Source: Strigamia acuminata
Taxonomy: Eukaryota
DNA: 64,000 nucleotides
NCBI GenBank assembly: GCA_949358305.1
Contig: OX442314.1
Span: forward strand, 4,650,001 to 4,714,000
Direction: 5' to 3'
Position 1 is the stretch's first letter. Every line of letters begins with the position of its first letter. Shown here one piece after another: positions 4,630-61,500 of the stretch. The notes beneath the pieces are model-generated. The model saw only the letters and a program-made list of their open reading frames with translations. It did no database searches and was not told the DNA's origin. Made by a program: the position numbers and the translations under genes.

Positions 4630-4646
4630 AATCCCCCTTCGATGAA

Positions 4647-10621: not shown

Positions 10622-10623
10622 TT

Positions 10624-30512: not shown

Positions 30513-30953
30513 CGTCCTTCTCTGGAATCTCGGCTCTCAGTGCGTCGCGCATTTTCTCTGGAAAGTAGTGGATCAAGGTCTCTTGACTCGCCCAGAATCG
30601 CGAGCGGGCTCTGGACGCGGTGAGTCGTTCCACTCGTGTTCGCTTGGATCTTCATCCATTTCTTCCTCTTCGTTATCGGGCGATTGCTTCCAGTTTCTTC
30701 GCATTCTTGATTTATTTGTTGGTTGCGATCTTTGTCTGTTAAACACCTGTTGTTGTCGTAACGGATTGCGGAGTGCACAGTTTAAAAGGTAGTCGAGGTT
30801 AAGTATTTGATTGGTTTTCGTATAAGATGCGTATTTTGATTGTTGGAGTCTCCTTGTGATTGTTTTTGTCCCTAGGAGGTCGGGGTAATTACGTCATCTT
30901 TGTCTTTATCCTTTTGATTGGTTAAGCCAACCATTTTGGATCTTTCTGCTGCA

Positions 30954-35231: not shown

Positions 35232-36520
35232 GTCAGTTCTTCGAATTTAGCTGTTAGCTTTTCTAACAATACTTCGTTCTCGGCAGCTTTCTTCTCCTCC
35301 TTCCTCTTTTTTCGTTTCGGGCAATCTCTTCTCCAGTGTCCCATCTCGTTACAGTAGTTACAGGGTTTTGTAGTGGAGTGGTCTGCTTTCGAGAAGGGTC
35401 GTCTTGCGAATTCCTTCTTTTCGTAGGGTTTATCGCTTTTGGGATTATGATGCTCCGTTCTGTTTGCCGTCTTCATTCGAGGTCGGTAGCTTGGGGCTGT
35501 TTCTTTCCCCATATTCGCGTGGAGAATCTCCTCTTCTTGTTGGCTCTCGCTCGTATCTCCCCCTGAGTTTTGCTCGGGGTCGTCTTCTTCGCTTTCCTTC
35601 TCGTCTTCGAAATCATTCACTTCAGATTTGGTACTAGCTCGATAAGCTTTCGGGGCTGGTATCGGGTTAGAAGTCGACTTGTCATTTGATTTTTTCGGTG
35701 GGGCTGCTTCGATGTTTCCGTTCAAGAAGGTTCGTGACTGGATTAGTCGGCCTGCGTCGTTATTTTTGGCGTGTATGCGCTGTATACGAAGTTGGGCCAA
35801 TGCCTTCTCTTCCGGGGTTAGAGAATCGGTATATCGATCATCTACTTCTTCGTGGCGTTTATTGACAAATTTCAACAACTGCTCGAAGCTATCCGTTGTT
35901 GGCGCGTTCATGTCTCGAAGCACCTTTTTCGACACGTCGTTCAGTCCCTTGTCGAAGATTAGTCTTTGGGCGTAGGCGTCCAGTGGAGTATAGAGTTCGT
36001 TAAAGAGACTTTTAGCGCGTAAGCAATAGGCTCGTAACTCCTCTCCGGGAGCTTGCTGCATGAGACTGACTCGTTGTCTGATCTCTTTTTGGGTCTCGCC
36101 GTATTGCTCGTTAAAGGCAACTACGAATTGTTCCCAATATTTTAAGTTCGCCTCCACGTACCACTCCCGCGCCTCTCCCACCAGCATTTCTGGCAGTCCC
36201 TTGGCTACCATTTCGTCCGGCTCGGCTCCAAGCCGCGAGATGGTGAGTGCCACCTCATTTAGGAACTTGTTTCCGGCCCTCCATGTGCCGTCGAATCTTA
36301 GTAGACGCAACTGAGACCATTTGATGTTGCGGTCTTTAGTATCCAGTGCCCATCGGTCGGCTAAATACTTCCTGAGCAGGCTTTCATTCCGTTCGTCTCG
36401 TTCGTCCAAGTCTTGGTTTCGGCCGGTCCGTGAATCGGCACGCATGTGTTCTTCTAACATTCGTAATCGCTCTTCCAGTATGGGGTCGGATTGGCTCTGA
36501 CTCCCATGACTCGGTGACAT
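35198..36520 (-). CDS. Gypsy C gag (capsid-like region and CCHC knuckle)
   Basis: LVGEAREWY...WEQFVVAFNEQY retrotransposon gag signature; CNYCNEMGHWRRDC. Confidence 0.88.
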   Translation of the reverse strand: MSPSHGSQSQSDPILEERLRMLEEHMRADSRTGRNQDLDERDERNESLLRKYLADRWALDTKDRNIKWSQLRLLRFDGTWRAGNKFLNEVALTISRLGAEPDEMVAKGLPEMLVGEAREWYVEANLKYWEQFVVAFNEQYGETQKEIRQRVSLMQQAPGEELRAYCLRAKSLFNELYTPLDAYAQRLIFDKGLNDVSKKVLRDMNAPTTDSFEQLLKFVNKRHEEVDDRYTDSLTPEEKALAQLRIQRIHAKNNDAGRLIQSRTFLNGNIEAAPPKKSNDKSTSNPIPAPKAYRASTKSEVNDFEDEKESEEDDPEQNSGGDTSESQQEEEILHANMGKETAPSYRPRMKTANRTEHHNPKSDKPYEKKEFARRPFSKADHSTTKPCNYCNEMGHWRRDCPKRKKRKEEKKAAENEVLLEKLTAKFEELTKNWLKQTEKK

Positions 36521-36609
36521 GTTTCCGTTTTGAGGAAGGAATTGGTTATTTTGCGAAGAATTCTGGCGCTGAGGAGAATTCTGGTTAGTTAAAGTTGGGG
36601 AAGTCGTGG

Positions 36610-37698
36610 TCAGCTGTGTTCCGGGGGGGGGAAGATTCCATTTACGGCTGTTCCGCTCAGGATCCCGTTATTTTGTTTTATTAATACGGTTGATTTTCTC
36701 CCTCCGTACAGTTGCGAATTAACTTTCGCGGCTTCCTTATTGGCGTCGTTAGCGGTCTTGTTCTTGGCTTTTGCGGCTTCGTTAGCTGCGTCGACGTTAG
36801 CTTTAACTGTTCGTATGTCCTCGAGGCTTGGCATTGCCAATCTATCTCGTCCTTGTTGATTTCTGATTTGATTTTGTTGATTAATCAATCGTATCATTTC
36901 GGAATTCGGGTCGTTCGGCGTTTGGCTGGTGTGGCCAGCTTTAGCCGCGAAAGATTGCGCGAATGCCCATGACTGTCTTCCTCGATTGTTCCGATTATCT
37001 TGCTGAAAAGCTTCCAAAAATTCATTCTGGATCTCGACTGGCTCGTCCACGATACTGGCCCACCCCTGGACGTTGATTCCTCTTGAGGTCATCGAATCGG
37101 CCTCGCTTTCGTTATCCGCGTCGGAACCGGTTTGGGTCGAATCGTACGAGTCGGTTGTTTGGCTACCGGTCTTTTGGCGTTTGACGCCCCTTCTCCCCCG
37201 TCTGGCAGCTCGTTTTTCCGCTCGTTCCCTGGTTAGACGAAGTATTATCTCCATCTGGGCTAGTGGATCTCCATTTTCGTCGAATGGTATTCCCTCTAAT
37301 CGAGCGATTGTATAAGCTTCCATACATTGATTGATTTGAGATCGCGTCGAATTATATCCGTGTTGAATGGTTACTCGATTGTGTTGAGCTCCGTCGTCTT
37401 GGTCAAACAGACTAAACCCGTCTTGACTTTTGTCGGATTCGTTATCGTTTATCGGGGGGTTAGGCTGTACGTTCTTCGGCGTTTTTTCAATCGGTGTTTT
37501 GCCGACGGACGTTTTCTCGACGTGGCTCGGCGTCTTGGTAACTCGATTCTTCTCTACGGGTTCCGGTGGTGTCGTATTTAACTTCGGGCTGGCTAACGCT
37601 TCGGCTGCCGCCTTGGCTTTTTCCATGGCGGCTTTTCGGGCGCTTGCGGTTGGAGGTTTTCGGTTCTTATTGCTTTTCGTCATTTCGATGGTTTGCAA
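36610..37698 (-). CDS. Gypsy C ORF0, probable N-terminal gag extension
   Basis: 362-aa low-complexity ORF after PBS; joins the gag frame by a -1 shift at the C9 run (36623-36631). Confidence 0.65.
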   Translation of the reverse strand: MQTIEMTKSNKNRKPPTASARKAAMEKAKAAAEALASPKLNTTPPEPVEKNRVTKTPSHVEKTSVGKTPIEKTPKNVQPNPPINDNESDKSQDGFSLFDQDDGAQHNRVTIQHGYNSTRSQINQCMEAYTIARLEGIPFDENGDPLAQMEIILRLTRERAEKRAARRGRRGVKRQKTGSQTTDSYDSTQTGSDADNESEADSMTSRGINVQGWASIVDEPVEIQNEFLEAFQQDNRNNRGRQSWAFAQSFAAKAGHTSQTPNDPNSEMIRLINQQNQIRNQQGRDRLAMPSLEDIRTVKANVDAANEAAKAKNKTANDANKEAAKVNSQLYGGRKSTVLIKQNNGILSGTAVNGIFPPPEHS

Positions 37699-37749
37699 AG
37701 TTCAAACCGTAAGATATGTTTATTTTAAATAGTTTGAATGTTCAAAACT

Positions 37750-37767
37750 ATCCCGGACAGGCCCCCA
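37750..37767 (-). promoter_or_regulatory. Gypsy C primer binding site (tRNA-Pro)
   Basis: TGGGGGCCTGTCCGGGAT vs canonical TGGGGGCTCGTCCGGGAT. Confidence 0.8.
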
Positions 37768-38566
37768 CGTGTCGTAACCTTGATTCCGGTAAATAAACTT
37801 ACTACAATATCTTACAATAAAACCTTTTATTTCACACTTCAATTATTACAAGAATGATACTTAAATGTTGTTGGTCTCGGATCCTTGTCGGTCGGATACG
37901 ATTGTTGCTGCACGGCAGTCTTACACGTGGCTTCTGTTGTCTAGGGTAATGGCGTCTGGCGAAACACGTGTTCGCAAACGCTTCGCTTCGGTAGATATTA
38001 CAATCGTAGATTTGCTACGATAAATATCTTTGGCTTGTTGTTATAGATGACTTGGGCAACGGGCATCGATCCTCTATCAATCCGTGGAGTTCGGCCTGAA
38101 AGGTGAGGTGTTGATGCTATGTTGCGGCTGGATCTATAAGTGGGGTTTCCGGTCAAAACACGGGTTTAAATGACCCCGGGAGACCGGAAATGACGTATTC
38201 GCATAAATTCGGAGAATTATGCAAATTTATGACGTCGTTACGTCAATCCCGCAGAAACGATGAAACTAGTAAAGCTAGTTTTCCCGTAATAATCTGATAG
38301 TCGATTTATTAGAAATACTAAAACACTATTTATTAGATCATAAATAATTAAAACACTTTTGTGACCTCGTGGTCACCACAAATTGTACATGATAACTGAC
38401 AGTTATCTGAATAAATTAATACAGAGTACATAATAAGTTGGGAATGAAGTTACAAGTGCCGTGAGATTTTAATTGTGCTTACAAGATATAGTATTTCTAA
38501 GTTCAACAATAAATGAAGTAAACTACTTATGTCATAAACTAACAACCAATGTGGAGTCTGCAAAAC

Positions 38567-39027
38567 CATAGTGTAAGAAGGGATAGTGGTCTCACTCCGT
38601 CAGTTCTCTGATTCGCCACGGTGGCGCTGCTTTACACAGACAGACTACTACAGCATAGAAATGCATGCTGAACTAGGTCAAAACCACTGATTTTGATTGT
38701 TTTAAGCATCAGAAATAAAAATAATTTAAAAAATAATTTAAAAATAAAAAAATAAAAATAATAAAATGATAAAAATAAAAAAATAATTAAAAAAAAATTT
38801 TTTTAAATTAATTTTATTCATCTTTTTTACCAAATTAATATTTGGTAATCTACAATATGTGTGTGATAATTATTTTTATTTCTGATGCTTAAAACAATCA
38901 AAATGAGTGGTTTTGACCTAGTTCAGCATGCATTTCTATGCTGTAGTAGTCTGTCTGTGTAAAGCAGCGCCACCGTGGCGAATCAGAGAACTGACGGAGT
39001 GAGACCACTATCCCTTCTTACACTATG
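38567..39027. mobile_element. Foldback MITE, P/Galileo-like
   Basis: About 160-bp near-perfect TIRs starting CATAG; 7-bp TSD GCAAAAC; AT-rich spacer. Confidence 0.82.
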
Positions 39028-40183
39028 GCAAAACCGTCATCGTTCAGCTCTCCAATGACCAATCCCAAAGCATGTAACAATCCGCATGTGATAACAGATA
39101 GGTTTTATTTTGCTGGTGCTGCCATCTGTTAGGATTCATGTTTGAAACAATCATAACTAATGAGTGTTTCAAACATGTTGCATTCAAAGTAATTCCACAT
39201 AATGGTATTATTGACTTTGAGTTGGTAAATTCTAAATTTCTCCCTAACCTAGGGAGAAACAACGTGAGCACCCTGAAGATTGGTTTACGTAATTTTCAGG
39301 AGGTCACACACAGTAAGAAAGATGATAATAAAAGAGGATCTGCAAGAGTGCAATAAAGGGAGTAAAACTTCACTGTAAAACACTGCAGAAGTGGCTTAAC
39401 CATTAACTCTAGATTCTTTAAATAAAATGCAGGCGTTTTGTTGTTAAAACTTGTGACGATTGACTTGGCGAGATACAAATTGCTTAACATTTAACGTAGG
39501 AACTCGTGTGAAAGTGTAAAAGTACGGAGGCTTGTGATTTCTCAAATCATATAACAGTTTATTGCGAATGGAAGACTTATATAAAACCTATGCCTACAAC
39601 TGGCTAAATAACTTATGTTAAATATACAATGGGTTGGCAAAAGCCCTGAAATAATATCACTTGCGGTTTTCAGTCGTGTAATAAGAATGTGTATCTTTCT
39701 TATTACGGTGACGTAAAAGATGTCGTCTTAGTATGGTTCGGGCTTTCAAATGGTCCTGGATCGGTTCTAAAATGGTGTGTAATGGTTAGGCTTGGGTGTG
39801 TTATATCCGAGAGATGCGGTTGACTTTGGCACAATCATCACACGTGTAATTATTGTATTGTTAATAATTACACAGCGCGATCATAAGAATGACGAAACAA
39901 TCGGAATAAATATTCATGTAAATTCCATTGAATTAAACATGATATTGTGTTCGCGAAACTGGATAAATAACTATAAAATAAAGAAAATAATTAAAATAGC
40001 GCCGAGCTATTTTTGCCCCGAGTGCAATCAACATTTAAGTCAGACTTAAATGTTCCATCAACCCAACAACGAAATGAATCGAAGTATTTCGCAGGAAAGG
40101 TTATCCATTGCCGGGAAATTACTCCACTCGGTTCTGGCTGGCGGGAGAGTAACCGGGAAATTACTCCGCGTCGATTACTCTGA

Positions 40184-40490
40184 TAATGCGTCTGTGAAAT
40201 ATAAATACTCCACTCTAGATTCTACATTACCAATGCGTCTGTGAATTTTACTCCACTCTAGATTCTGCATTCTACAACGGAATGTTGGCATGAAGCTGGA
40301 GGGAGTGCGTCTGTGGGTTGTACCCCACTCTAGATACTACACTTAAATGTGTCTGTGAATTACTCACTCTAGTTACGACATTTCTACAACGAAATGTTGG
40401 CATGAAGAGGCGGGAGTGTGTCTGTGAGTCTTCTACCCACTCTAGATACTTACACTAAATACAAAGTATTTCTACAACGGATTGTCGGAA
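40184..40490 (-). repeat. Array of five related hairpin-forming units in the Gypsy D LTR (second copy 52539-52845)
   Basis: Five copies of CTAGAGTG...CACAGAC interspersed with three C(A/G)ACA...CGTTGTAGAA units. Confidence 0.85.
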
Positions 40491-41694
40491 CGCAGAGAAG
40501 TATAGTATGTGCTCAAGTAATATCAGTATCAAACAAAAACAGAACAAGAGCGAGCTATATCCGTTTTGCAGGGGGATATATACTCGGTGAGGAGAATAGC
40601 TGTTCAGTGATCCAATGGGATCACTGGGCAGCCAAATCCATCCAATCCTAGATCACAGGAAGTGGATACTCAGGACATAGTCTTCTACTAGGTCCACCAC
40701 AGGAACTGGATACGCAGGACACACTTTGGATTAAGTCCCTTTGACTATAATCCGAAAGGAGTCCAACTCAGTGGGTGATGAAGGGTGACTTCACCAGGTG
40801 TAAAGTTTGCACATAATTCAATAGAATTATGTGACAAATAAATCAACTAATATTTAAACATCCAAAAGTATTTAAAAGTGTCTAAAGTTGCAGTGGAATA
40901 AAATATAAATAGTAATTTATATTTTATTCACTCAAAAATTGTCGAATTTGAAATTACCGCTAAAACGTATCAGCGCCATCTATTGGTGAAATAATCGTCC
41001 TAAACTAACAAAGTGTATGACAGTGTAACCGTCACAAGTCCCCCTTAAATATATGTTAATACCAGTATTAACATACTATTTATCCCGAATATCTTGAGGA
41101 TCAAGACCACACTGTCATCTATGGAACTGGAGCTGTAATCCTTGATAAGTAAAAACCTTTATTTTATATCTTAATAGTATAAATAAAGAGTATTTCTTAA
41201 TCAAATGCTTCAAAAAATATTTATTAGGGTTATAAAACTTCCAATTATCAATAATAACTTCCATCTCTCTTTACAGGTGGACTTACAACTGCATCAAGAA
41301 AAGGTGATAACTTAAACTTACATCAAACTCTTGTACCAAACAAATGATTAATAAAATTTAACAATTATTTTCACAAAACTTAACTTCTCACTGGAAATAT
41401 AATGATTTGCAAAATAACACTTTACACGTTAAAATTCAAGTATTAAAATTAGTATTTTTATAAACAAACTCACATTGACTCGTAATCAAATTTTAACGAA
41501 ATTGTTAATTTAAATATTAAAGATCTTTGAATTATTCACAAAAAACGGCATAAAATACACCTGAACCTGACTCAATCTTTGTTTCATCTCGGGTTGGGAA
41601 TGAAGATGGAAGAATTGAACTCGCTACCTCTGGTCTTGCCCTTAAAAGGGGAAATGTTGGGAAAGTAGCGGATCCCGACATCGTTGACGCTTTT

Positions 41695-43362
41695 TTAGTC
41701 CAACTCTTCATCCTCAATGAATCCTTCCATGGACGTAACAACTTCCGAGGTGGCTGCGGGTGGACAGTTAAGTTGAATAGTTACCATTTCCGGTACTACG
41801 TCCGGTTCAACGTCATGGTTCAGTGGGTCCAGGAGCATTCTGTGTTGTTCCTCGGTGAATACTTCCAGGGGATCAGGCCCTCCTAACGGAATGGTGTTAG
41901 CGCTGGTTGGCTCGGAAAAAACCAAGTGATGGTCGGGTAAGCCAGAGTGCCATCCCTCACGAATCAACGGGTGTGCTGCTGCTGAGACCTGCTGCAAAAT
42001 CTTACACCAAATAAAAGAGCGAGTTTGAAAAGATTCCGGCCGGGATGGATGAAAAATCCATTGGATCACGGCTAGTGGCACGCTTAAATCTGGAATCTGG
42101 TCGTTCGAAATTGACACGCTAATACGCTTAGCTGCTTCCAATAAAATTGGGAAATAATGTTCCACTTCCGCCTTAGTTTGTTCCGTGAGCGACATGCTTG
42201 GTCTCGGCATATATGGGTGGACCAGTAAAATAACCGGTTCAGCAGCGTCGTTTACTTCGGGGAGCGGAATGGTCGCTACAATCATGTTGTTAGCCGATGT
42301 TCCCTCTGGAGAAGCGGCGGCTTGCGGACCAGAATCGGATGCAACCGGCGGAGAATCAGACGCAGTAACTGACGTTGGTTCGTTCGTTGGGAGGTTTTCC
42401 GCCGAGACAACTGGAGTTCCCTCAATCGCAGGGGTGGGAGTATCCGGCTCGCGTTGTGGCTCCGTAAATCCTCCTCGTGGAGTCGAGGTGCTGGACATTT
42501 GCGCCGGGTCTACATAAATAGCTTGCTCCGGGCCCTGGTGGATGAGGCCACATTCGCGACACATCGCCCAATTTCGTGCTGTCGGCGTACTTAGCCCTTT
42601 GACGATGAATGGAAGAATTTCTTCGTTCCACATACTGGAAATTGCGACACGCTTACCACCGTGACAGTTCACGCAGACTACGGCGTGAATGCCGGACAAT
42701 AATGAGGACAACCACCCACATCCTGCGCACAATGGGCAGAACATCAACTTCGATTTAGGCATGATATTGGTTCCCAAGGCGGCAGCTTCCATATCGCGAA
42801 ACACGTGTTCTCGCCGTTGCTTACGATAACTCGGTAAGTTGAGCTCCGATAATGAGCGAGTTTGCGATGTTGGGCGGGTCAACGCTTCGGATGAAGATGC
42901 CAACGTGGACTTGGTGGGTCCCTTGGTTTTGCCTGTCTTGCCTCGACTAGCGGTATCGCAAGGATTTCGTGGTCGGGCAAACTGTCTGCTGGTAGTCTGA
43001 GGTGGAGCTTCTTCATAAGATTCTTCTTCTTGTGAGAAGTCGTCTTGGCGCCGTCTCCTTGAAGCAGAACGGGAGTATTGTGACGAGTCGTCAGAAAAAT
43101 CCCAATTCGGAGTCTCGCGGGGTGCATCATAGGTGACAACACGCTGACTAGCTGGACGGCCTCTGGAAGGACGCGAGTCGGTCGGGCTAACACCCATGGC
43201 GGTCCTAATTCGTGGTGGTACGAGATCCGGATTATCTCGGGCCCAGTTGGCGACGAGCTCGGGGTCAGAGGAGGGATTAACAAAGCGATAATCCGTCTCT
43301 TCCGACTCTTCTGGATCCCAATGCACGTATTGTCGCTTGCTAGCGCGACCTCGGCGACTCAT
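41695..43362 (-). CDS. Gypsy D accessory ORF3, 555 aa, Arg/Ser-rich N-terminus and Cys-rich putative zinc-binding region
   Basis: Intact ATG-started sense ORF after pol; CPLCAGCG...CVNCHGG...CRECGLIH; acidic C-terminus; T-rich tract plus AG just before the ATG. Confidence 0.8.
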   Translation of the reverse strand: MSRRGRASKRQYVHWDPEESEETDYRFVNPSSDPELVANWARDNPDLVPPRIRTAMGVSPTDSRPSRGRPASQRVVTYDAPRETPNWDFSDDSSQYSRSASRRRRQDDFSQEEESYEEAPPQTTSRQFARPRNPCDTASRGKTGKTKGPTKSTLASSSEALTRPTSQTRSLSELNLPSYRKQRREHVFRDMEAAALGTNIMPKSKLMFCPLCAGCGWLSSLLSGIHAVVCVNCHGGKRVAISSMWNEEILPFIVKGLSTPTARNWAMCRECGLIHQGPEQAIYVDPAQMSSTSTPRGGFTEPQREPDTPTPAIEGTPVVSAENLPTNEPTSVTASDSPPVASDSGPQAAASPEGTSANNMIVATIPLPEVNDAAEPVILLVHPYMPRPSMSLTEQTKAEVEHYFPILLEAAKRISVSISNDQIPDLSVPLAVIQWIFHPSRPESFQTRSFIWCKILQQVSAAAHPLIREGWHSGLPDHHLVFSEPTSANTIPLGGPDPLEVFTEEQHRMLLDPLNHDVEPDVVPEMVTIQLNCPPAATSEVVTSMEGFIEDEELD

Positions 43363-44654
43363 TGCGTCTTCAAAAAAAAATAAATTTTATTTGAGAACAT
43401 GAATCAAACCGTCGGTAATTAATTTAATTTCAAATTAAATTAATTGTCGACCAACAACTGGATTAATTTCATAATTAATTCTTAAGTTCCTTTTGTTAGC
43501 GTGTTTCCTTCATTTGTCGAATAATTATTAAAATTAATAATTATTATTGACTCGGTAGATAATTTCATCTTATCTTTTAAAAACAATATCGTTGACAAGA
43601 TATTCAAATTAGTGTTTATTAAATAAAATAAACCTAATTTTTGCATCTAAACGACATAATAACTAAAAAACCTGTCAAAATATTAAAAAATATTCTTGCA
43701 AGTATTTTTAGTACCTGACAATAGTCACTTTACATGATTTTAACTGTACGAATAACTCTATAATTCGTCCGAGTAAATAATCTATCACCGACATCTGGTG
43801 GCGTTTGTTAGTATCATACACGTGACTTGTTGACACATGTATACTCACCAATTTCAGAAAGGAACTTAAGCGACATTTTATTTTCATAAAATAAACACTT
43901 ACGAACTAGGTGGAGTCCTAGAAGGGTATATTTGGCTAGTTTAACGTCTAGCTTCACGTATTTGCGAGGGCTGCTCGGTTCCGGCGATGTCGGCCGATAA
44001 AAACGTTGTGCGGCGCGTGCGAATTCTAGGCCCGCCGTAATTAGCACTTTATGAAATAAACCATTATTAACTGTCAAAATATTCAAAGGAAATTTTGACA
44101 CAATAAATATCGGAAATATTTTTACCGGAGAATTGCAACGTGATCACGTGGTGAGATTTTTCTTTCGAGAAAATTCGACGAGTGAGTGGAATCCGGCAAT
44201 TTTTCCAAGTTAACTGATATTTGAACACAAATTCAGTTAAAGTTTATGAAAAGTCGTTTAAGATAAAACATAGTTTAACTCACTAGAACTCGGGAAAATC
44301 ACGTAGTTTTCGTGGAGAGTTGAGAGTTGTCCAGGGTTGTGTCCGTGTATGAAACTTAACAACAAGTGTCAACTACTCTCTAACGAGGGGTTAAGGGGAG
44401 TTTCGAGGAGTAATTTGATTGGCTTATAATTACTCATCTCGAAGTTTCTATTAACCCAAAGGGGGAAACATAGTTTCAAGTAAATGTTTACACGTAGATT
44501 AATTTAAATACAATCGGCCGTGTAAAAATAACTCAAACATTTGTTAAATTTTATCTACATTGATGAAATGTTTTTATTAATAAAATTTAATAATCCTTCG
44601 TGAATATGATTGGAAATATTTATTTAAAATAAAATATTTTCAATATATTGTGTC

Positions 44655-47600
44655 CTAACCCAACTTGACTTGTTTTAAACAATTTATGAGTTGTACAAAA
44701 TCGGTCACGTATTTTGTGTTCGGCTTGGGTCTACGTTTAGACTGTCGAACGAGAGATGGAAATCTTTTCCTCTTTTTAGATGGATTTTGAGGAGTTTCGT
44801 CCTCTTTAGAAGAAATCTGAGAAGTTTCCTCCTCTTTCTCTTCAACTAAATCCTCTGTTTCCATGGACACAGGTTCATTTATTAATTCTGGAGAATTAAT
44901 AACCTGACCTGCCATCCAATCTGGAGTCGGGTGTGACTCGTTGGTACCGATTTTCTGATCTAATGTCCATTCCTCAATCGGGTAACTTGGGATATAAGGC
45001 ATTAAATCCTGTATGTTGATCGCTTTTGCTTTTGAATTGTCGGAGAGCTTCCGTAGCGTGTAGGAACCTCCGCCAAGAACAGCCGTAATCTCCCAAGGTC
45101 CATCACGTTTCTCAGCGAATCCTGCCGAAATCCCTTTATCTTTATTCGATAAAATATGTGTGGCTTTCCACACGAGATCTCCTTTGGCAAATTGACAAAT
45201 ATAATATTTGTCTTTATGTAGTCGATCATGCTTTTCGTAATTCGATTGAATTTTCCGATGCATTTCGCTGTGTGCACGTCTAATTACGTCTAAAATGCTG
45301 TAGACATAAGCTTCGGGATTCTCTTTGTCGAATTTGATGGCGTGTTTAGTAATACGCGGGTCAAATGGCAAAGGAACGATTCTTCCCGTATTAAGAATCA
45401 TCGGAGAACAATTTGTTGCCTCGGACTTAGCGGTGCGCATCGCAAAGGCAAAAGAATTTAAATATTTTGGCCAGTGGGAGTGAATGTCCGAGTATAAAGC
45501 TAACATCATTTTTAAAGTCCTGTTAGCCCGCTCTGTAATATTAGCGGCAGCGTGATATGGGCTAATGTGAGCAATATCTACGTGATTTTTTCGACAAAAA
45601 TCATTAAATATTGTCGACACGAATTGTTTGCCGTTGTCGGAGATTATCTTTTTTGGATATCCCCAACGGTGGAAAACTTCGCTCATTTTATTAACAATGC
45701 ATTCACTTGATGCGGTCGCTAGTGGGAAGACTTCAATCCATTTTGTACAATTATCAATGATTACTAAAATCCATTTTAATTGTGAACGACCGGCTGGTTT
45801 TGGTCCCATCAGGTCAATGCTTATTGTCTCCCACGGGTTGGTCATGTTGTGGGGTGTATAGCTTGCCCGATGTTTTTGGTGTGACTAGGTTTGTATTGCT
45901 GGCAATGAGTGCAACTGCGAACGTAGTTTCGAGTGTCTTTGCTCATTCTAGGCCAGAAATACATCTTCTTTGCTCTATCTAGGGTTTTACTCATGCCAGC
46001 GTGTCCTGTAAGTGGATGGCCATGGCATGCGAATAATGCACGTCTCACAAGAGAGCGTGGAATTACCGCCTTAAACCCGTTGCCGGAGTCGTTTAACTCT
46101 TCCTCATCGGTCGGAGCAAAATAAATTAGCACAACACCTTTATTTTCTTCCGGTTCGTCGAGAGTGTAGCCACGAATCGCATTTAACCAATGTTTATCCG
46201 TGATACGATTTTTTAATTTTTCGTCTCCTTTTAGGTAAACAAGGATTTTACTACATGCTGGATCTTTAAGTTGCGCTTCGATAATTTCGTCTCTAGTCGG
46301 CGGGGCTATTTTGAGGATATCTGTTAGCGCAGTGTGTACATTTTCGTGATTACAATTGTGGACATCTATATGTCTGCAATTTTCTCTCGTGCATCCTTCT
46401 TCCTCCCCCTTTTCTCCAGAATCATGAAATCTAACTGGATTATATGATTCTGAGAAAAAATCTAAACTAAGGCCAACATTTGTAAGAAAATGTTTGCGCT
46501 TAGTTTCCGTCACTTGTAAAGATGCACACCTGTTTCCATTCCAAGTTGGATAGAAATGGGTGATTTCCTCTGGCTCGATATAATCATAATCCGGAGTGTC
46601 TAGTGCAGACAGTGGAGCGCGTGATAATGCGTCCGCTACTTGGTTCATTAAAAATAATTTTAAACGCGCCACATTGTATCTTGACGGCCCAACGACCAAA
46701 CCTTCCCGATGGTTCCGGCGTACTCATCAACCAGCTAAGGGCCTTAGCATCGGACTCGAGAGTGAAAGTCGTGTATTCAATATATGGGCGAAATCTTTCG
46801 ATTGCCCATACAACGGCCAAACACTCCAATTCCGGCGTAGAATACCTTACTTCGGCCCCGTGTAACACTCGACTGGCGTACGCGACTGCTTTCGGGACCA
46901 TTATTAATTTCTGTTTCTTTTCACAGAATAATTCTACGTCCTGACAGAGTACTGCACCTAAGCCTGAATGAGAAGCATCTGTCAAAATGACAAAAGGCTT
47001 ATTCATATCTGGCATGTGGAGAAGGGCTTGGTCCTTGTCACACAAAATATCTTTGATAGTTTCGAATGCAGTTGTTTGTGGATCATCCCACACAAACTTT
47101 GCTTGATCATGCATAATATTGGTCAATGGACGAGCAATATTTGCGATGTTGGGAATGAATTTTCGGAAAAAATTCGCAAGTCCTACAAATCTTTGAATGT
47201 CTTTAGAACAAGTCGGTTTGGGAAAATTCCTTACAGCCGAGACTTTGTCAGGGTCTGGAAGAAGAGATCCCTCCGAAATTAAATGGCCTAAAAATCGTAA
47301 TGATGTTCGACCAAATTTTGACTTGTCTTTATTGATAGTTAGATTTGCGGCATCTAACTTCTCAAGTACGTCTTTAATATGTAATAAATGATTTTCCCAT
47401 GTGTCGGAAAAAATAATTATATCGTCTAAGTAGACTAGAGCATATTTATATAAAGAGTCACCCAATACGGTAGTCATGAGGTGTTGAAAAGAGCTGGGTG
47501 CATTACAAAGACCAAATGGCAATCTTTTGAATTGAAATTTGCCTTTTGGGGTGTAAAAAGCAGTTTTGCTCTTATCCTCCTCCTCCATTTCCATTTGATG

Positions 47601-48929
47601 ATAACCTTTAGTTAAATCAATGGACGTAAAGTACTTGGCCTGATTAGTATGATGAATTAACAGGTCAATACTTGGCATTTGAATTGCATCAACTTCTGTG
47701 ATTGCATTCAACCAGCGGTAGTCGATACATAATCGATACTTCCCGCCGGGTTTAGCCACTATGACGGGGTGACTTATATAGGGGCCAGTGGCAGGTTCGA
47801 TTAACCCATCGGCCTCCAATTCCTCGACCAATTCCGTCATAATGGCCTTCTTGGCCGGGTTGTACATTCTATACGGCTGGTGTTTCCAAGTAGCACCAGG
47901 TTTAAACTTGATGCTGTGCTTGGCAACCTTCGTGCAGCCCAATTGATCTCGAAATACGTTTTTTAATTTCAAAAGAACGTTTATGAGTAACTGTTTTTCT
48001 TCTGCCGAGCTGTTGCAGCCTTCGACGAGTTTTTCTGCCCAGTCAGGTGAAGTGGGAGATCCTTCACCTTGGAGACCCAGAGTCCTAATGCTTGCTAAGC
48101 AACAGTTAAGTTCAGTGGTCTCGTATGGTGCTGTCCATCCGGGCATGTCATCACAGGTGAACACAGCCCGTCGGGGATTAGGGTTTATCCCCGTTCTACG
48201 CATAAAATTGTGACCCAAAATCAACCCACATACATTCTTGTGTAGAATTATGAAGGTCATAGGTGTAACTCTCCTTTTATCGGCCCATTTGACACAAAGA
48301 CAAACTTGACCGATAGGTCGGTGATCTATTCCGACTGCGCAGACACGCATTCCCCGAGGACATTCTTGTATGAATTCCACCGGAATTTCTGTGTTTGAAA
48401 GGAGTTGTACTCCAATAAAACATTGGGTGGCTCCAGAGTCCATTAGTGCGTTGTAATCCAAACCTCCAATTTGGACATTCATACGCGGATCATCTTTGCC
48501 ACCATTAATTAATTTGCTATTGCAAAGTTTGCCAAGAAATACTTTACGTTCTTTTTTGTTCCATTTTTCAAGTTTAAGAAGTTTTCTTAACTTGAAAATC
48601 TTAGGTACAAGTGGTTTTTTCGGTGCATTCCAACTTCCACTGAAAATACTCAAATTTTCTAGTTGGTCTGTCATGATTTTTAAATTTTCATCGACACCAC
48701 CAGTGGAACTACTCGCTTTCCGACAGACAGGTACTGCTTCGTAAGAAATGACCAATGATGGTGGTTTATTCTTCGAATCGTCAACATAAGGCACTGTGAG
48801 ATGACTAGGCTTATGTCTTATTTTAATTTCTTTTTTATGTGAAAATAAATCATTGGACAATTCCGAGAGAGGAAACAACTCTTTAGGCGGGGGTTGGGCA
48901 ACTTGAACAACCCCCTGAATCAGTTTTTT
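44655..48929 (-). pseudogene. Gypsy D pol with two frameshifts
   Basis: LMDSGA, YLDD, LTDAS, HHCC, DDE, GPW motifs over three frames (breaks near 46650 and 45845); A_AAA_AAC at 48923-48929. Confidence 0.9.
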
Positions 48930-49975
48930 GTCTCGTCGGGGGTGACTGAATCAGTGGCTGCTGGTAAGTGCTTAATTAACAGGTCAACCATGTTTTTCTG
49001 GAAGTCAGTAAATTTGGAGTCTAAAGTTTCTGACGTAACCCAATTTTGTTTGGGTCGTTTAAACTCGGGGTTGGGAGCAGAGTGGTTAAATCTTTTATTT
49101 GAATTTAACGAGTCTGCTTTCCCTGCTAATTTTTTGGCAAGAGCGGGACATTCTCTTTTAAAATGTTCAGGCTCGTGACAGAAAAAGCATTTTCCAGTAG
49201 TCTTTTCATACTGGGCGGCAAATAATCGCTCCATTGAACCATCGTCAGTTGAGTCGTCATTTTCCGACTCGTCTTCATCTTCAACCTCATCTTGTGTTTG
49301 CGTTAAACGTAGTGAAGTTTTAGATGGAAAAATCTTAGATTTTTCGTGAATTTTTGGAGTAGGATGATTCTCTCGATTATCGTACTCCAATTTTGCTGCA
49401 AGTTGGGCAGAACTTTCAAACTTAGAGCGATTTGCTCCTACATATTGTAGAATGTCATCTACTGTAAAGTCACCATACATCCCTTGTGTACATAACGCCG
49501 TGAAACTTTCTTGGGTTAGATTGTCGAATAATTGCGCACGTCCAGTTTTATCACCTGGCGGCACTTCACCTTGTTCTTGCGTATAACGCAGAAGAAAACT
49601 GTAAAGTGACTCGTCGGCTCGTTGTTTTACATTAAGAAGTCGCCTTTCTCTTGTAAGTGGAACGAGATCGAAACAATCGAGGAAAGAGGCTTCGAAAGTT
49701 CGCCAACTATTAAAAGTATGACGTTGCTTATGGAACCAACGTTGTGCATGGCCTAATAGTCGTCCAGGTACAGCAGTGTGTACCATGTCGTCTAAAGGGA
49801 TGCCTTTCCCGAGTGCGACAGCTTTGACGATTTCAAGGAATCGTGCAACCTCTGTCTGTTTCCCGTCACAAATAGGAATCTCGATTCCTTTTCCAAAATT
49901 CTGACTGGAATTACTCGGGCTTCGGATTTGACCAACTAAACCCTGAATAATTTGTTTTACATTTTCGTCTGACAA
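48920..49975 (-). CDS. Gypsy D gag
   Basis: LLGHAQRWF...SWRTFEASFLDCF; CFFCHEPEHFKREC knuckle. Confidence 0.85.
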   Translation of the reverse strand: MSDENVKQIIQGLVGQIRSPSNSSQNFGKGIEIPICDGKQTEVARFLEIVKAVALGKGIPLDDMVHTAVPGRLLGHAQRWFHKQRHTFNSWRTFEASFLDCFDLVPLTRERRLLNVKQRADESLYSFLLRYTQEQGEVPPGDKTGRAQLFDNLTQESFTALCTQGMYGDFTVDDILQYVGANRSKFESSAQLAAKLEYDNRENHPTPKIHEKSKIFPSKTSLRLTQTQDEVEDEDESENDDSTDDGSMERLFAAQYEKTTGKCFFCHEPEHFKRECPALAKKLAGKADSLNSNKRFNHSAPNPEFKRPKQNWVTSETLDSKFTDFQKNMVDLLIKHLPAATDSVTPDETKN

Positions 49976-50949
49976 ATTAGAAGCAGCGTTCGAGTTGGGT
50001 GTAGACCGACTTTCTTGGTCTCTGGGTGGTGGATTTGGCTCTTCGCGAAAATTTTGGCGTCTATCAGGTGGAAATTATTGTTATAATTTCCCCCTCTACC
50101 AGCGTGAGATTCGTCACTACTCGAGTTAGGATCGGAGTCACGAGGATCACCAGGAGCTCCGGGAAATCGTTGATTTCTCGGCGGAGCTCGTCCACCTTGA
50201 GAGCGGGAATTTCTATAATTCCTAAAATCTCCATCAGATTGGGTGTGAGATTGAAAATTTTGATAATTTTCATTTCTCCCCCTTGGTTGGATCGACAGAT
50301 TAGTTCGAGGCTGTGGAACTCTGAAAGAATCATTCAAATTCCCAGTGGGAGCGGGTAAATTATTATTTACTGCCGTCGCACTTGGCAAATTTCGGGAAAT
50401 TGGCGCAGAAATATTTCCTTGTCCGGAATTTCCCATTCTTTCGGCTGAATTCGATCGCCAAGAACTAGCTGGTAGCTGAATCAAAGGTTGAACAGATAGT
50501 GAAGAATTTAACTGCCCATTGTCGTCACGAGCAACATTCATTCGCCATCCAGGTAATTGCTGGTAGCGATATGTGGCCGGTGAACGAGGGCCAGTTCGAT
50601 CTACAGAAACACTTCGTTCGTTGGTTACAACTACATCGGGAGTAATTACACGATTTCTCTCGTGATGATTATTCGCCGTGTATTGTTGAGCTTCACACAA
50701 AGAGGAAAACTGCGTCACCTCCAATTGGTAATGGCGACAGTAAACTTCTAAATCATGCGGGACTGATAGTGGATCTGTCCGAGAACTACTTGGGTTGGAA
50801 ACGTCTCTAGGAACATTTTCTTCCCCCTGGCTTTCTAGATCAGACTCCACAATTCCTCTTGGTGTTTCACACATACCACCACGTCGTCGTGCTCCACGAT
50901 TTCCTCGTGTTCCACGAACTCTTACAGGTCTACGGGCCATAATACTCAA
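49957..50949 (-). CDS. Gypsy D ORF0, probable N-terminal gag extension
   Basis: 330-aa Arg/Gly/Asn-rich ORF overlapping the gag frame, which is open from about 50074. Confidence 0.6.
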   Translation of the reverse strand: MSIMARRPVRVRGTRGNRGARRRGGMCETPRGIVESDLESQGEENVPRDVSNPSSSRTDPLSVPHDLEVYCRHYQLEVTQFSSLCEAQQYTANNHHERNRVITPDVVVTNERSVSVDRTGPRSPATYRYQQLPGWRMNVARDDNGQLNSSLSVQPLIQLPASSWRSNSAERMGNSGQGNISAPISRNLPSATAVNNNLPAPTGNLNDSFRVPQPRTNLSIQPRGRNENYQNFQSHTQSDGDFRNYRNSRSQGGRAPPRNQRFPGAPGDPRDSDPNSSSDESHAGRGGNYNNNFHLIDAKIFAKSQIHHPETKKVGLHPTRTLLLICQTKM

Positions 50950-51785
50950 AGAAATATACGTACAAAAGAAAAAATAAAATTTAACTGAACTAGCGTAAAT
51001 GTAACACGCTTAATATTAAACTAAGAAATAATTTGAAAAAATACAACCTTAGCTGCTGAAACTGAAGTGGCTTCGGGAAAGAACTGTCCTGTTGTGTGGT
51101 CAAGAATGGTCCAAACGGGCACTGGTCACAAAGGCACAACTGGATGGTCACACTGTCGAAAAGCAAGTGTGGCTGAATATTGGTTGTCAAACTCGCTTCC
51201 GGAAAATCTCCTTTGTCAAGACAGTCTGCTGTGATTGGTGATGTTGAAAAAATTCCTGATAATTTCTAACCCGAAATTCTCAACAATGTCACATCTGGAT
51301 GACCTACTCCGAGCTGCATCGTGAGTGGCTCTCATTGGCACATTCTTTACCTTGTCAAGGATTAAGAATAATAATCCAGAACATTGGCAGAACAATAGAA
51401 AAACTGGTCAAGTTTTCAACCAGTAAAATAAAATATTTATTTTTTAGTTAGCAGAATTTCTAGTCAAATTCGTTTTTTGATCGAAATTAAATGTTTCGAA
51501 ATTTTCCAGAATATAGCCGAATATTCTGGGAAACTCAATAAAATCATAATAGATTTTTCGTAAGAGATTCGGAATTATAATGAGTTTTTCAAAATAATTC
51601 AAAAATTCGAATTCAGATATTTTCAAAAGATAATGAGAATTTTTTGAAAACAAATGGATATTTCACAGTAAATTTATAGAGAAAATCGGAAATTTTCTAA
51701 TTATAATATCTACATAAAATAATCAAAAAATTCATTTTTCTATTTTACACTTGATCACAGAGTTCACTTCAATAAAATGCAACCT

Positions 51786-51803
51786 ATCTCGGTGGAACCT
51801 CCA
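51786..51803 (-). promoter_or_regulatory. Gypsy D primer binding site (tRNA-Gln)
   Basis: TGGAGGTTCCACCGAGAT, 18-nt complement of the metazoan tRNA-Gln 3' end. Confidence 0.9.
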
Positions 51804-53652
51804 CGTGTGACGATTGACTTGGCGAGATACAAATTGCTTAACAATTAGAGCGAGAACTCGTGTGAAAGTGTAAAAGTACGGAGGCTTGTGATTTCTCAAA
51901 TCATGTAACAATTTATTACGAATGGAAGACTTATATAAAATCTATGCCTACAACTGGCTAAATAACTTCACGTTAAATATACAATGGGTTGGCAAAAGCC
52001 CTGAAATAATATCACTTGCGGTTTTCAGTCGTGTAATAAGAATGTGTATCTTTCTTATTACGGTGACGTAAAAGATGTCGTCTTAGTATGGTTCGGGCTT
52101 TCAAATGGTCCTGGATCGGTTCTAAAATGGTGTGTAATGGTTAGGCTTGGGTGTGGTATATCCGAGAGGTGCGGTTGACTTTGGCACAATCATCACACGT
52201 ATAATTATTATATTGTTAATAATTATACAGCGCGATCATAAGAATGATGAAACAATCGGAATAAATATTCATGTAAATTCTATTGAATTAAACATGATAT
52301 TGTGTTCGCGAAACTGGATAAATAACTATAAAAATAAAGGAATAATTAAAATAGCGCCGAGCTATTTTTGCCCCGAGTGCAATCAACATTTAAGTCAAAC
52401 TCAAATGTTCCGTCAAACCAACAACGAATTGAATCGAAGTATTTCGCAGGAAAGGTTATCCATTGCCGGGAAATTACTCCACTCGGTTCTGGCTGGCCGG
52501 AGAGTAACCGGGAAATTACTCCGCGTCGATTACTCTGATAATGCGTCTGTGAAATATAAATACTCCACTCTAGATTCTACATTACCAATGCGTCTGTGAA
52601 TTTTACTCCACTCTAGATTCTGCACTCTACAACGGAATGTTGGCATGAAGCTGGAGGGAGTGCGTCTGTGGGTTGTACCCCACTCTAGATACTACACTTA
52701 AATGTGTCTGTGAATTACTCACTCTAGTTACGACATTTCTACAACGGAATGTTGGCATGAAGAGGCGGGCAGTGTGTCTGTGAGTCTTCTACCCACTCTA
52801 GATACTTACACTAAATACAAAGTATTTCTACAACGGATTGTCGGAACGCAGAGAAGTATAATATGTGCTCAAGTAAATATCGGTATCAAACAAAACAAGA
52901 ACAAGAGCGAGCTATATCCGTTTTGCAGGGGGATATATACTCGGTGAGGAGAATAGCTGTTCAGTGATCCAATGGGATCACTGGGCAGTCAAATCCATCC
53001 AATCCCAGATCATAGGAAGTGGATACTCAGGACATAGTCTTCTACTAGGTCCACTACAGGAACTGGATACGCAGGACACAGTTTGGATTAAGTCCTTTTG
53101 ACTATAATCCAAAAGGAGTCCAACTCACAGTGGGTGATGAAGGGTGACTTCACCAGGTGTAAAGTTTGCACATAATTCAATAGAATTATGTGACAAATAA
53201 ATCAACTAGTATTTAAACATCCAAAAGTATTTAAAAGTGTCTAAAGTCGCAGTGGAATAAAAATATAAATAGTAATTTATATTTTATTCACTCAAAAATT
53301 GTCGAAATTTGAAATTACCGCTAAAACGTATCAGCGCCATCTATTGGTGAAATAATCGTCCTATACTAACAAAGTGTATGACAGTGTAACCGTCACACGG
53401 TTATGGTCTTGCCCACGATAACCTGGGGACTGTATGCGTCCCAAACCATGGTAACCAGTCCGCAGGCTGCCATGGCAAAGACCGTACCAGTCACAACGTC
53501 AACACGATGCCCACAAGGAATAGTCTAACCCCACCTCGCCTGGTTTAGTTAATGGTTAATGTAATCACGTAACATTATATCTGGCCGTAATATCACATAA
53601 CATCATCCTGCAACCAGCAACTCCTCCAGGCAGTGCATTGGTTATACAGTCA

Positions 53653-53826
53653 AAGCTGCGTAGACCGGACATAGCACCGACCGGACAGCTGTGTGGACCG
53701 GACAGTTTGGAGGGCCTAATTTGGTCCCGCCCTATACCCAGCAATGTTAAATCGCCTCTCCCATCCGGACATTCCCTAGACCGGACAAGTTTCTGGGACC
53801 CGTCCTATGTCCGGTCTACACAGCTT
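53653..53826. mobile_element. Small MITE upstream of ENaC gene 2
   Basis: TIR AAGCTGCGTAGACCGGACATAG / CTATGTCCGGTCTACACAGCTT with internal CCGGACA repeats; TSD unclear. Confidence 0.6.
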
Positions 53827-54014
53827 ACACTGTATGGCCATTTGGGTGTCTGTTGATCTGGTTAACTTGAAACTGATCACACTTGTTTAAATTAAGAAAA
53901 AGTTACTACACATGAAAGCATTTCGCATAATATGTCAGGTGACAATCAATTAAAGTAATCAATATTAATCTCAACAGCTTCGTGCCACATCGATAACTGC
54001 ACTTAAAAGAAACA

Positions 54015-61243: not shown

Positions 61244-61500
61244 GTTAAAAGTCAATTTTGTAAGACAAGCAGGTGTGCTCGTCTTCTTGCGTATCGTAAA
61301 AAGGTTTTTGGGACGTTCGTAAATGTTAATAACTATTAACTTTGCTTTTTTATTTATTGCAAACTTACAACTGGCAACTTCTACAATTACCGCCTTCTTT
61401 TGTCGCAAAACGGAACTAAAGATGTAATACCAAAATCGACTACTAGATGGCGCGGTTTTTTAAATCCGCGTGGATTCTTTTCGATTCCAGGATGCATATA

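What the first reader, a model, noticed from the sequence alone, without database searches (positions are those of the whole stretch)
40184..40490. Array of five covarying bulged RNA hairpins downstream of the TATA box in the Gypsy D LTR (TAR/RxRE-like)
Seen: on the element sense (minus) strand each unit reads outer stem, AGWA-type loop, UCU(AGA bulge)GUG, upper stem-loop, CACAGAC, outer stem. The core CUAGAGUG/CACAGAC is invariant while flanking stems change in compensatory fashion. Outer stems: UAAUGU/GCAUUA, AAUGC/GCAUU, GUGU/GCAC, AUGU/ACAU, GUGU/ACAC. Upper stems: GUGGAGUA/UAUUUCAC, GUGGA/UUCAC, GUGGG/CCCAC, GUGAG/UUCAC, GUGGGU/ACUCAC. G-U wobbles favour this strand, and a difference between the two LTRs in unit 2 keeps pairing (A-U to G-U). 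A TATATA at about 40577-40583 and AATAAA at about 39558 would place the array at the 5' end of a roughly 1-kb R region. Known: HIV TAR and HTLV RxRE are bulged R-region structures bound by Arg-rich viral proteins. Inference: a multimerised protein-binding RNA element, possibly for ORF3 of the same element.
Basis: partly seen in the sequence, partly recalled or inferred. Interest (0 to 1): 0.85.

Follow-up and report, generated by a model that had tools for sequence, protein, structure and literature searches.

The report
Bulged RNA hairpin array in retrotransposon
A jumping gene of an invertebrate carries in each of its end repeats five copies, plus two drifted ones, of a predicted bulged RNA hairpin whose pairing is kept while its letters change; it is likely a multi-site protein dock on the element's RNA, possibly for the element's own uncharacterised cysteine-rich protein, which would parallel the regulatory RNA elements of HIV and HTLV.

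Summary
Confirmed: each 1.6-kb LTR of a multi-copy Gypsy element holds five units with an invariant CUAGAGUG/CACAGAC core. 90 of 91 stem cells pair, three pairs change on both sides, and G-U outnumbers A-C 9 to 0 on the sense strand. A tree-aware simulation gives p 0.0003-0.02. The array is about four times less diverged between the two LTRs than the rest (p 0.006). Two further diverged units downstream replace the core helix UCU/AGA by UCG/CGG and CCG/CGG. Against: in context the five-hairpin fold lies about 20 kcal/mol above the minimum, no RNA run was listed, and a second TATA 20 nt before the AATAAA could put the array in U3. ORF3 is a conserved Cys-rich, non-Env protein with two centipede homologues only. 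It is not a TAR: the bulge is AGA and the loops vary. Best reading: a selected multi-site RNA dock (about 0.8), with ORF3 as ligand in a Rex/Tat-like feedback loop (about 0.35). No Rfam match, no relatives found, no matching paper in ten searches.

The parts
40414..40457 (-). Unit A1 (first in transcript order), 3' LTR; contains consensus donor-like GTAAGT at 40453
40345..40383 (-). Unit A2; one broken core pair; donor-like GTGAGT at 40367
40303..40344 (-). Unit A3
40231..40272 (-). Unit A4; outer A-U pair is G-U in the 5' LTR
40184..40229 (-). Unit A5; the only unit whose whole fold is predicted to dominate in context
40146..40181 (-). Diverged unit B1: core helix UCG/CGG, bulge ACGC, upper stem GGAG/UUCC; z -3.5
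40111..40135 (-). Diverged unit B2: AGAA, core helix CCG/CGG, bulge AGU, upper stem GGAG/UUCC; shares an 11-nt run with A4
40475..40487 (-). Small hairpin C1 (4-bp stem, 5-nt loop) that opens module 1
40457..40471 (-). Stub hairpin AAAUAC/GUAUUU in the place of a unit in module 1 (inferred remnant of an outer stem)
40387..40418 (-). Spacer S1 plus small hairpin C2
40275..40306 (-). Spacer S2 plus small hairpin C3; S2 pairs with the 5' arm of A4 in the competing fold
40576..40582 (-). TATA candidate 1 (TATATAT); inferred start near 40550
40612..40719 (-). Two 20-nt enhancer-like repeats (40719, 40675) and two inverted CCAAT boxes (40646, 40616) upstream of TATA 1
   Evidence: function inferred
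39576..39583 (-). TATA candidate 2 (TATATAAG), 20 nt before the AATAAA, in both LTRs
39558..39563 (-). AATAAA, candidate poly(A) signal
39452..41036 (-). 3' LTR, 1585 nt, TGTGACG..CGTCACA
51806..53397 (-). 5' LTR, 96.8% identical to the 3' LTR
52455..52845 (-). Second copy of the whole array (A units at 52770-52813, 52700-52738, 52658-52699, 52586-52627, 52539-52584)
51787..51803 (-). Primer-binding site (tRNA-Gln by recall, not tested)
41039..41046 (-). Polypurine tract
41695..43362 (-). ORF3, 555 aa, intact; three CxxC pairs, Arg-rich stretches, no membrane segment; acceptor-like T-run and AG just before the AUG (43368)
44655..48950 (-). pol (PR-RT-RNase H-integrase), in three reading-frame pieces in this copy
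48920..51009 (-). gag, in two pieces in this copy, weak CCHC knuckle

Best explanation
The LTR carries a tandemly amplified, pairing-conserving array that likely folds on the element's sense RNA into five to seven bulged hairpins and likely serves as a multi-site dock for the element's own ORF3 protein, which would raise the output of full-length RNA as Rex or Tat do. Shown: the repeats, the invariant core, pair-preserving changes, low divergence, varying unit number among copies, and a conserved Cys-rich non-Env ORF3 downstream of pol. Inferred: transcription from TATA 1 puts the array about 95-440 nt into a long R. Early spliced RNA (donors in units A1 and A2, acceptor before the ORF3 AUG) makes ORF3. 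ORF3 binds the purine bulge and internal loop, which share one strand, and pulls the array from the spacer-paired fold into the hairpin fold. This would shield the donors and favour full-length RNA (Rex-like, slightly preferred) or recruit elongation factors (Tat-like). I put 'selected RNA dock for some protein' at about 0.8 and this whole mechanism at about 0.35.
For: 13-pair structure found by RNAalifold. 90 of 91 cells paired, 3 pairs with changes on both sides, covariation 0.30 versus at most 0.11 in slid controls. 13 stem changes along a spanning tree break 2 pairs where 6-9 are expected, p 0.0003-0.017 over six settings. G-U 9, A-C 0. Substitutions between the LTRs 3 of 391 in array plus B units versus 38 of 1194 elsewhere, p 0.006, and none breaks a stem. 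The core helix itself covaries in B1 and B2 and, read by eye, in two low-depth variant joints seen in runs X1 and X3 (table 5c). An invariant bulge between free stems is what sequence-specific binding sites look like (established for TAR and RRE; recalled). ORF3 has two Strigamia homologues that also follow integrase and keep all six Cys (E 3e-11, 1e-8), Arg-rich stretches at residues 3-9 and 98-105, and no membrane segment. The only two GT[AG]AGT donors of the 3' LTR lie in A1 and A2.
Against: The five-hairpin fold is 19.5-22 kcal/mol above the minimum in context, and outer-stem probabilities are at most 0.04 for A1-A4; co-transcriptional prefixes do not rescue them. Antisense folds better by z-score. 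Only five related units in one family: few independent events, and the frame was read from these sequences. Low divergence could also come from gene conversion among repeats. Two single contigs change a core letter (40313, 40372). A 1-kb R is four times the longest retroviral R (15-250 nt, PMC12789967), and TATA 2 offers a short-R reading. No binding, transcript or splice evidence. ORF3 has no Tat, Rev or Rex similarity and only one weak export-signal-like match. The gap before ORF3 has its own donor and acceptor-like sites, so ORF3 may use an internal promoter.
Confidence: 0.35

Rival explanations
1. The array is a multi-copy packaging or dimerisation signal read by the Gag zinc knuckle, which binds unpaired purines in bulges; ORF3 does something else.
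For: Unpaired G/A-rich bulge and loop in every unit; Gag has a CCHC knuckle (weak, E 0.003); UCUAGA is a palindrome in 4 of 5 units. Earlier unchecked scan notes report hairpin arrays in non-coding LTR elements that have no ORF3.
Against: The array ends about 740 nt upstream of the PBS and would be on every transcript, spliced or not, which gives poor selectivity. The palindrome is paired or bulged, not in an apical loop.
Confidence: 0.22
2. The array recruits a host protein (export receptor as for the CTE, a UAG-binding protein, or a transport adaptor) to export, localise, translate or stabilise the RNA.
For: CTE-type repeated internal loops bind host NXF1 without a viral factor (PMC12789967, passages). 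TAGA occurs 10 times in 391 nt of the array versus 4 in 1194 nt elsewhere in the LTR. Egl-BicD needs two bulged stem-loops per RNA (PMC13186709, abstract and passages).
Against: Egl-BicD signals need 3'-strand bulges, and 5'-strand bulges point away from the protein (PMC13186709); here all multi-nucleotide bulges are on the 5' strand. No Rfam CTE-like match. UAG enrichment follows from repetition of one motif.
Confidence: 0.2
3. Transcription starts at TATA 2, R is about 20 nt, and the array lies in U3; it then exists only at the 3' end of the RNA and works like an RcRE/RmRE-type 3' element or a stability element. This reading concerns position and overlaps the ligand readings above; promoter-proximal TAR-like action would be excluded.
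For: Perfect TATATAAG 20 nt before the only distal AATAAA in both LTRs; RSV and MMTV have such short R regions (PMC3601003, PMC12789967, passages); avoids a 1.1-kb strong-stop DNA.
Against: TATA 1 has enhancer-like repeats, two inverted CCAAT boxes 30 nt apart and a pyrimidine-rich stretch 30 nt downstream; TATA 2 has no CCAAT box. The LTR is AT-rich, so one TATA-like octamer is not rare.
Confidence: 0.28
4. The array is a conformational switch: spacers pair with unit 5' arms, and the two folds set donor access or poly(A) site choice differently at the two ends of the RNA, as in foamy viruses, with no dedicated ligand.
For: S2 pairs with the A4 arm at -16.9 kcal/mol, beyond composition (1 of 1000 shuffles; best of 15 tests), and S1 of the 5' LTR with A1 (36 of 1000). 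Donors lie upstream of the AATAAA in the inferred R; foamy viruses use such a donor and alternative structure (PMC3694450, abstract).
Against: 12 of 15 spacer-arm pairings are no better than shuffles at p 0.05; two spacers cannot show covariation; the invariant bulge still asks for a reader.
Confidence: 0.13
5. The array is a neutral tandem expansion of a chance hairpin, or a set of DNA-level factor sites, homogenised by recombination.
For: Tandem repeats are common in LTRs (PMC3601003, PMC3286476, passages). Unit number varies among copies (joints skipping 153 and 40 nt). Folding z-scores are weak.
Against: Pair-preserving changes far exceed the neutral simulation; G-U versus A-C polarity is 9 to 0; the spacing between GTG and CAC varies from 7 to 14 nt, which a dimeric DNA-binding protein would not tolerate.
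Confidence: 0.1

Closest known systems
HIV TAR / Tat (lentiviral R-region element)
   Same: Hairpin with a 3-nt bulge on the 5' strand between short helices; inferred position downstream of the TATA box in R; partner candidate is Cys-rich and Arg-rich.
   Different: Bulge is AGA, not pyrimidine; apical loops are not conserved; five to seven copies starting about +95, not one to three from +1 (TAR details recalled); ORF3 is 555 aa with no Tat similarity; no Rfam match.
HTLV Rex/RxRE, HERV-K Rec/RcRE, MMTV Rem/RmRE
   Same: Structured LTR element with several docking stem-loops, a splice donor in the same region, and an accessory ORF that would come from a spliced RNA (PMC12789967, passages; RcRE recalled).
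   Different: Those are branched non-repetitive folds in vertebrate retroviruses; here a modular tandem array in an invertebrate Metaviridae element; no sequence similarity; export signal and binding not shown.
MPMV constitutive transport element
   Same: Repeated internal-loop motif with conserved purine-rich sequence.
   Different: CTE is one twofold stem-loop outside R and binds host NXF1; no Rfam match here.
Osvaldo/Gmr1-related Gypsy retrotransposons with 1-2 kb LTRs
   Same: LTR 1.6 kb (997-2055 bp in Culex Osvaldo elements, PMC3286476), termini fit TGTNANR..CGTNACA (rGmr1, PMC3601003), third ORF after pol.
   Different: PBS is not tRNA-Lys (Gln by recall); ORF3 is not Env-like; integrase follows RT, unlike Gmr1. 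I recall that the 1999 Osvaldo paper mentions a TAR-like sequence; that paper was not held and the point is unverified.
Egl-BicD localisation signals (K10 TLS, I-factor ILS)
   Same: Several bulged stem-loops on a retroelement RNA.
   Different: They need 3'-strand bulges and tolerate any sequence; this motif has 5'-strand bulges and a fixed sequence.

Membership tests
HIV-type TAR | Pyrimidine (U-led) bulge on the 5' strand (recalled) | tested here: not met
   Bulge is AGA in 10 of 10 A units; AGU and ACGC in B units
HIV-type TAR | Conserved apical loop for cyclin T1 (recalled) | tested here: not met
   Loops differ in length and sequence in all five units
HIV-type TAR | Lies at the very 5' end of the nascent RNA | not testable with these tools
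   No RNA holder listed; by inference the first unit starts about +95
HIV-type TAR | Match to a curated TAR model; element encodes a Tat homologue | tested here: not met
   4 sub-threshold unrelated Rfam matches in the LTR; ORF3 has 0 Pfam families at E 1 and 0 PDB matches
Rex/Rec/Rem response elements | Structured element in the LTR or 3' end of the unspliced RNA | tested here: met
   In both LTRs, sense strand, under either promoter reading
Rex/Rec/Rem response elements | Accessory protein with Arg-rich RNA-binding motif and Leu-rich export signal | tested here: inconclusive
   Arg-rich stretches present; one weak export-like match inside the Cys domain
Rex/Rec/Rem response elements | Protein made from a spliced RNA; binding promotes unspliced RNA | not testable with these tools
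   Donor- and acceptor-like sites only; laid runs look like DNA
Egl-BicD localisation signal | Bend from 3'-strand bulges plus spaced U-A pairs (PMC13186709) | tested here: not met
   AGA and AGWA are on the 5' strand; one unpaired C on the 3' strand
Retroviral packaging signal | Lies mainly between PBS and gag, absent from spliced RNA (recalled) | tested here: not met
   Array ends about 740 nt upstream of the PBS, inside the LTR
Retroviral packaging signal | Binds the nucleocapsid zinc knuckle | not testable with these tools
   No RNA-protein tool
Self-cleaving ribozymes of retroelements (hammerhead, HDV-like, twister) | Catalytic core matching a curated model | tested here: not met
   No such Rfam match up to E 10 in 39400-41100
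Metaviridae (Ty3/Gypsy) | LTR-PBS-gag-PR-RT-RH-IN-PPT-LTR | tested here: met
Osvaldo lineage | 1-2 kb LTRs | tested here: met
   1585 and 1592 nt
Osvaldo lineage | tRNA-Lys PBS (PMC3286476, Culex elements) | tested here: inconclusive
   PBS read looks like tRNA-Gln by recall; no tRNA comparison run
Osvaldo lineage | RT clusters with reference Osvaldo elements | not tested
   No named reference among the 120 listed of 287 hits; the best hit's cluster has fish members and another cluster a tick member

The most novel reading that the evidence does not exclude
An invertebrate Gypsy retrotransposon has independently evolved a complex-retrovirus-style feedback circuit: a spliced, zinc-binding accessory protein (ORF3) recognises a tunable array of five to seven bulged hairpins in a 1-kb R region and switches the element from accessory-protein RNA to full-length genome production. 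It would be a Tat/Rex-like protein-RNA pair outside the Retroviridae, with a new RNA motif and a new zinc-binding domain.
Probability: 0.3. Interest if true: 0.9.

Novelty: new variant of a known kind. Interest (0 to 1): 0.64.

Why it matters
The roles of the extra, non-Env ORFs of Gypsy elements are largely unknown, and RNA-targeted transactivation is treated as a property of complex vertebrate retroviruses. Here a short, precisely defined RNA motif and a candidate protein lie in one element, so the question can be tested directly with a 40-nt RNA and one protein domain. Even if the ligand is Gag or a host factor, the motif is an undescribed, selected, copy-number-variable RNA signal in an LTR, and similar arrays noted elsewhere in this scan suggest an overlooked general feature of LTR retroelements.

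Tried and rejected
Run search: 6 runs listed, no RNA holder listed; the runs laid cover the non-coding flank and look like DNA, so start site, poly(A) site and splicing stay open. The depth drop near 39990 first looked like an RNA end; depth recovers at 52156 in the other LTR, so I read it as a locally variable stretch and draw nothing from it. Two-unit pattern scans: 3 viral loci (one phage gene) and 6 metagenome loci (unrelated minisatellites); the model scores none of the 9 above 13.1 bits. Exact patterns cannot find diverged relatives. The model did not detect B1 or B2; their homology rests on shared runs and position. No repeated 9-mer in the four other LTR pairs examined. ORF3: no hit among 7990 candidates; one further Strigamia fragment outside the Cys domain; AlphaFold models unusable (pLDDT 36 and 39), so no fold search; the language-model atlas gave no answer. 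The first simulation used a threshold that was too strict and was redone. 'TAR' in PMC2996953 means transcriptionally active region. No look-alike by sequence among earlier scan findings.

Full report
Setting. The finding lies in the 3' LTR (41036-39452, minus strand) of a Gypsy element whose 5' LTR is 53397-51806; the two are 96.8% identical. Between them lie a primer-binding site, gag in two pieces, pol in three pieces with protease, RT, RNase H and integrase domains, a 1.3-kb gap, an intact 555-codon ORF3 and a polypurine tract. The host is an invertebrate, probably a myriapod or other arthropod. That is an inference from the centipede homologues of ORF3 and from a neighbouring Copia with an MBD domain, a type reported only from a centipede and two spiders (PMC6673714, passages). 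In three public runs the inside of the element is covered far more deeply than the flank (X1 about 50,000-57,000 versus 280; X3 about 7,800 versus 110; X2 about 700 versus 110). This is not a copy count, but it fits a multi-copy family.

The observation. The core CTAGAGTG..CACAGAC occurs 10 times in the window, 5 per LTR, all on the sense strand. 90 of 91 cells pair. Three pairs change on both sides, two of them G-C to A-U and one U-A to C-G, each with a G-U form present in another unit. The covariation score is 0.30 against at most 0.11 for slid partners, and 0 of 500 shuffles reach it, though the tool warns that related rows inflate this; the count of doubly changed pairs was reached by 47 of 500. 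To allow for relatedness I placed the 13 observed stem changes at random along a spanning tree of the five 3'-LTR units: 2 pairs are broken where 6-9 are expected, p 0.0003-0.017 over six settings. G-U cells outnumber A-C cells 9 to 0, which points to the sense strand and to RNA. Swapping halves between units is a weaker test: 6-8 of 120 orders do as well as the real one.

Selection. The two LTRs differ by 3 substitutions in the 391 nt of the array and its downstream units and by 38 in the other 1194 nt (p 0.006). The three fall in a loop, in a linker and in a pair that stays paired; one inserted base falls in a spacer. Among family copies in run X1, differences carried by at least 30% of the depth number 2 in those 391 nt and 14 in 400 nt of flank (p 0.004). 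That count used the 35 listed rows with X1 depth out of 40 shown, with 141 further rows hidden, and it overlaps the LTR comparison, so it is not independent. Two single contigs change a core letter (40313 in X6, 40372 in X3). Joints that skip 153 or 40 nt show copies with fewer units.

(1) Two more units follow. B2 keeps the AGAA loop and an 11-nt run of A4 but has CCG/CGG for UCU/AGA, with an AGU bulge; B1 has UCG/CGG with an ACGC bulge. The supposedly invariant core helix therefore covaries too, U-A to U-G to C-G and U-A to G-C. Read by eye, two low-depth variant joints in X1 and X3 carry such a unit with a longer AGA-led bulge in an A position (table 5c). The model built on A units did not find B1 or B2. 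(2) The array is a higher-order repeat: a 4-bp hairpin, two units and a C-rich spacer, three times, with the first unit of module 1 reduced to a stub. (3) The spacers can pair with the 5' arms of neighbouring units. For this reason the five-hairpin fold is 19.5-22 kcal/mol above the predicted minimum, and only A5 forms fully in context. The S2-A4 pairing exceeds composition (1 of 1000 shuffles, best of 15 tests); 12 of 15 do not. Either a ligand or non-canonical pairs stabilise the hairpins, or the region is a switch. This is the main evidence against a simple constitutive array. (4) The only two GT[AG]AGT donors of the 3' LTR sit in A1 and A2, and an acceptor-like site lies just before the ORF3 AUG.

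Position in the transcript. TATA 1 (40582) has two 20-nt repeats and two inverted CCAAT boxes upstream and a pyrimidine-rich stretch 30 nt downstream. TATA 2 (TATATAAG, 39583) lies 20 nt before the AATAAA in both LTRs, as in short-R retroviruses. U3/R/U5 borders cannot be set without RNA (PMC3601003, passages), and no RNA holder was listed. I put TATA 1 at about 0.65-0.7.

ORF3. No Pfam family, no solved relative and no usable model. A full HMMER scan of 1.84 billion representatives returned 2 hits, both Strigamia maritima retrotransposon gene models in which the match follows integrase. They keep all six cysteines of three CxxC pairs, two tryptophans and, in one, a C-terminal block. ORF3 has Arg-rich stretches and no membrane segment. 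It is thus a conserved accessory protein, probably zinc-binding, and not Env. Nothing here shows that it binds RNA.

Mechanism. Shown: a repeated, selected, sense-strand pairing pattern with a fixed purine bulge, variable in copy number, in an element with a conserved accessory ORF. Inferred: a multi-site dock (about 0.8). For the ligand I rank ORF3 (0.35) above the Gag knuckle (0.22) and host factors (0.2); a ligand-free switch (0.13) and neutral expansion (0.1) follow. Within the ORF3 reading a Rex-like role is slightly preferred, because of the many sites, the donors inside the array and the distance from the start site; a Tat-like role fits the Cys-rich domain and the bulge geometry.

Comparison and novelty. 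It may work like TAR or RxRE but is a member of neither: bulge, loops and protein fail the TAR tests, and Rfam has no match in the LTR (4 sub-threshold hits). Egl-BicD signals need 3'-strand bulges (PMC13186709, abstract and passages). Foamy viruses give a precedent for an R-region donor under structural control (PMC3694450, abstract only). The LTR length and ends resemble Osvaldo/Gmr1-related elements (PMC3286476, PMC3601003, passages), but I did not place the RT against references. Ten full-text searches (listings, with passages of eight papers and one abstract) showed no description of such an array or of a Tat/Rev-like pair in a Gypsy element. The library lacks most subscription papers, I read no supplements, and the 1999 Osvaldo paper, which I recall as mentioning a TAR-like sequence, was not held. 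Earlier unchecked notes of this scan list 12 findings with covarying hairpin arrays in retroelements, 8 shown; they make arrays look less unique and raise the packaging rival, but none resembles this one by sequence. Pattern scans found no relative.

Verdict. A real, selected RNA-structure array with an undescribed motif; function untested. New variant of a known kind, interest 0.64; a Tat/Rex-like circuit outside the retroviruses has probability about 0.3 and would deserve 0.9.

Noticed in passing
window 5178-9515 (-), LTRs 4170-4630 and 10622-11082: Intact Copia polyprotein with a methyl-CpG-binding domain and identical LTRs: a young CopiaMBD-type element, a kind already described from a centipede and spiders (PMC6673714).
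   Followed up: partly
window 28239-30536 (-), element 27551-38380: A second Gypsy (611-nt LTRs, 99% identical) also has a long third ORF (765 codons, Arg-rich N-terminal part, no Pfam family) and an extra ORF before gag (36610-37701). Its LTR has no repeat array.
   Followed up: partly
window 43370-44650 (-): The gap between integrase and ORF3 holds donor-like sites (44283, 43902, 43848, 43716), acceptor-like sites and a CpG-rich patch near 44040-43960; ORF3 may have upstream exons or an internal promoter.
   Followed up: partly
window 39990-40014 (-): An 8-bp hairpin followed by a U-rich run, in both LTRs, at the edge of a stretch that varies among family copies.
   Followed up: partly
window 39440-39451 and 53398-53410: No target-site duplication flanks element D, and its LTRs differ by about 3%; the copy may be a recombinant of two insertions.
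   Followed up: no
runs X1, X2, X3 on window 41040-56500: The ratio of element depth to flank depth differs strongly among three runs of one species label (roughly 200, 6 and 70), which may mean large copy-number differences; contig depth is a poor measure.
   Followed up: no
window 15955-16857 and 55595-56434 (+): Exons of amiloride-sensitive sodium channel (DEG/ENaC) genes lie between the retroelements.
   Followed up: no
window 25014-25774, 38566-39028, 53639-53840, 56891-57241, 61480-61818: Several long inverted-repeat elements (MITE-like) in the spaces between retrotransposons.
   Followed up: no
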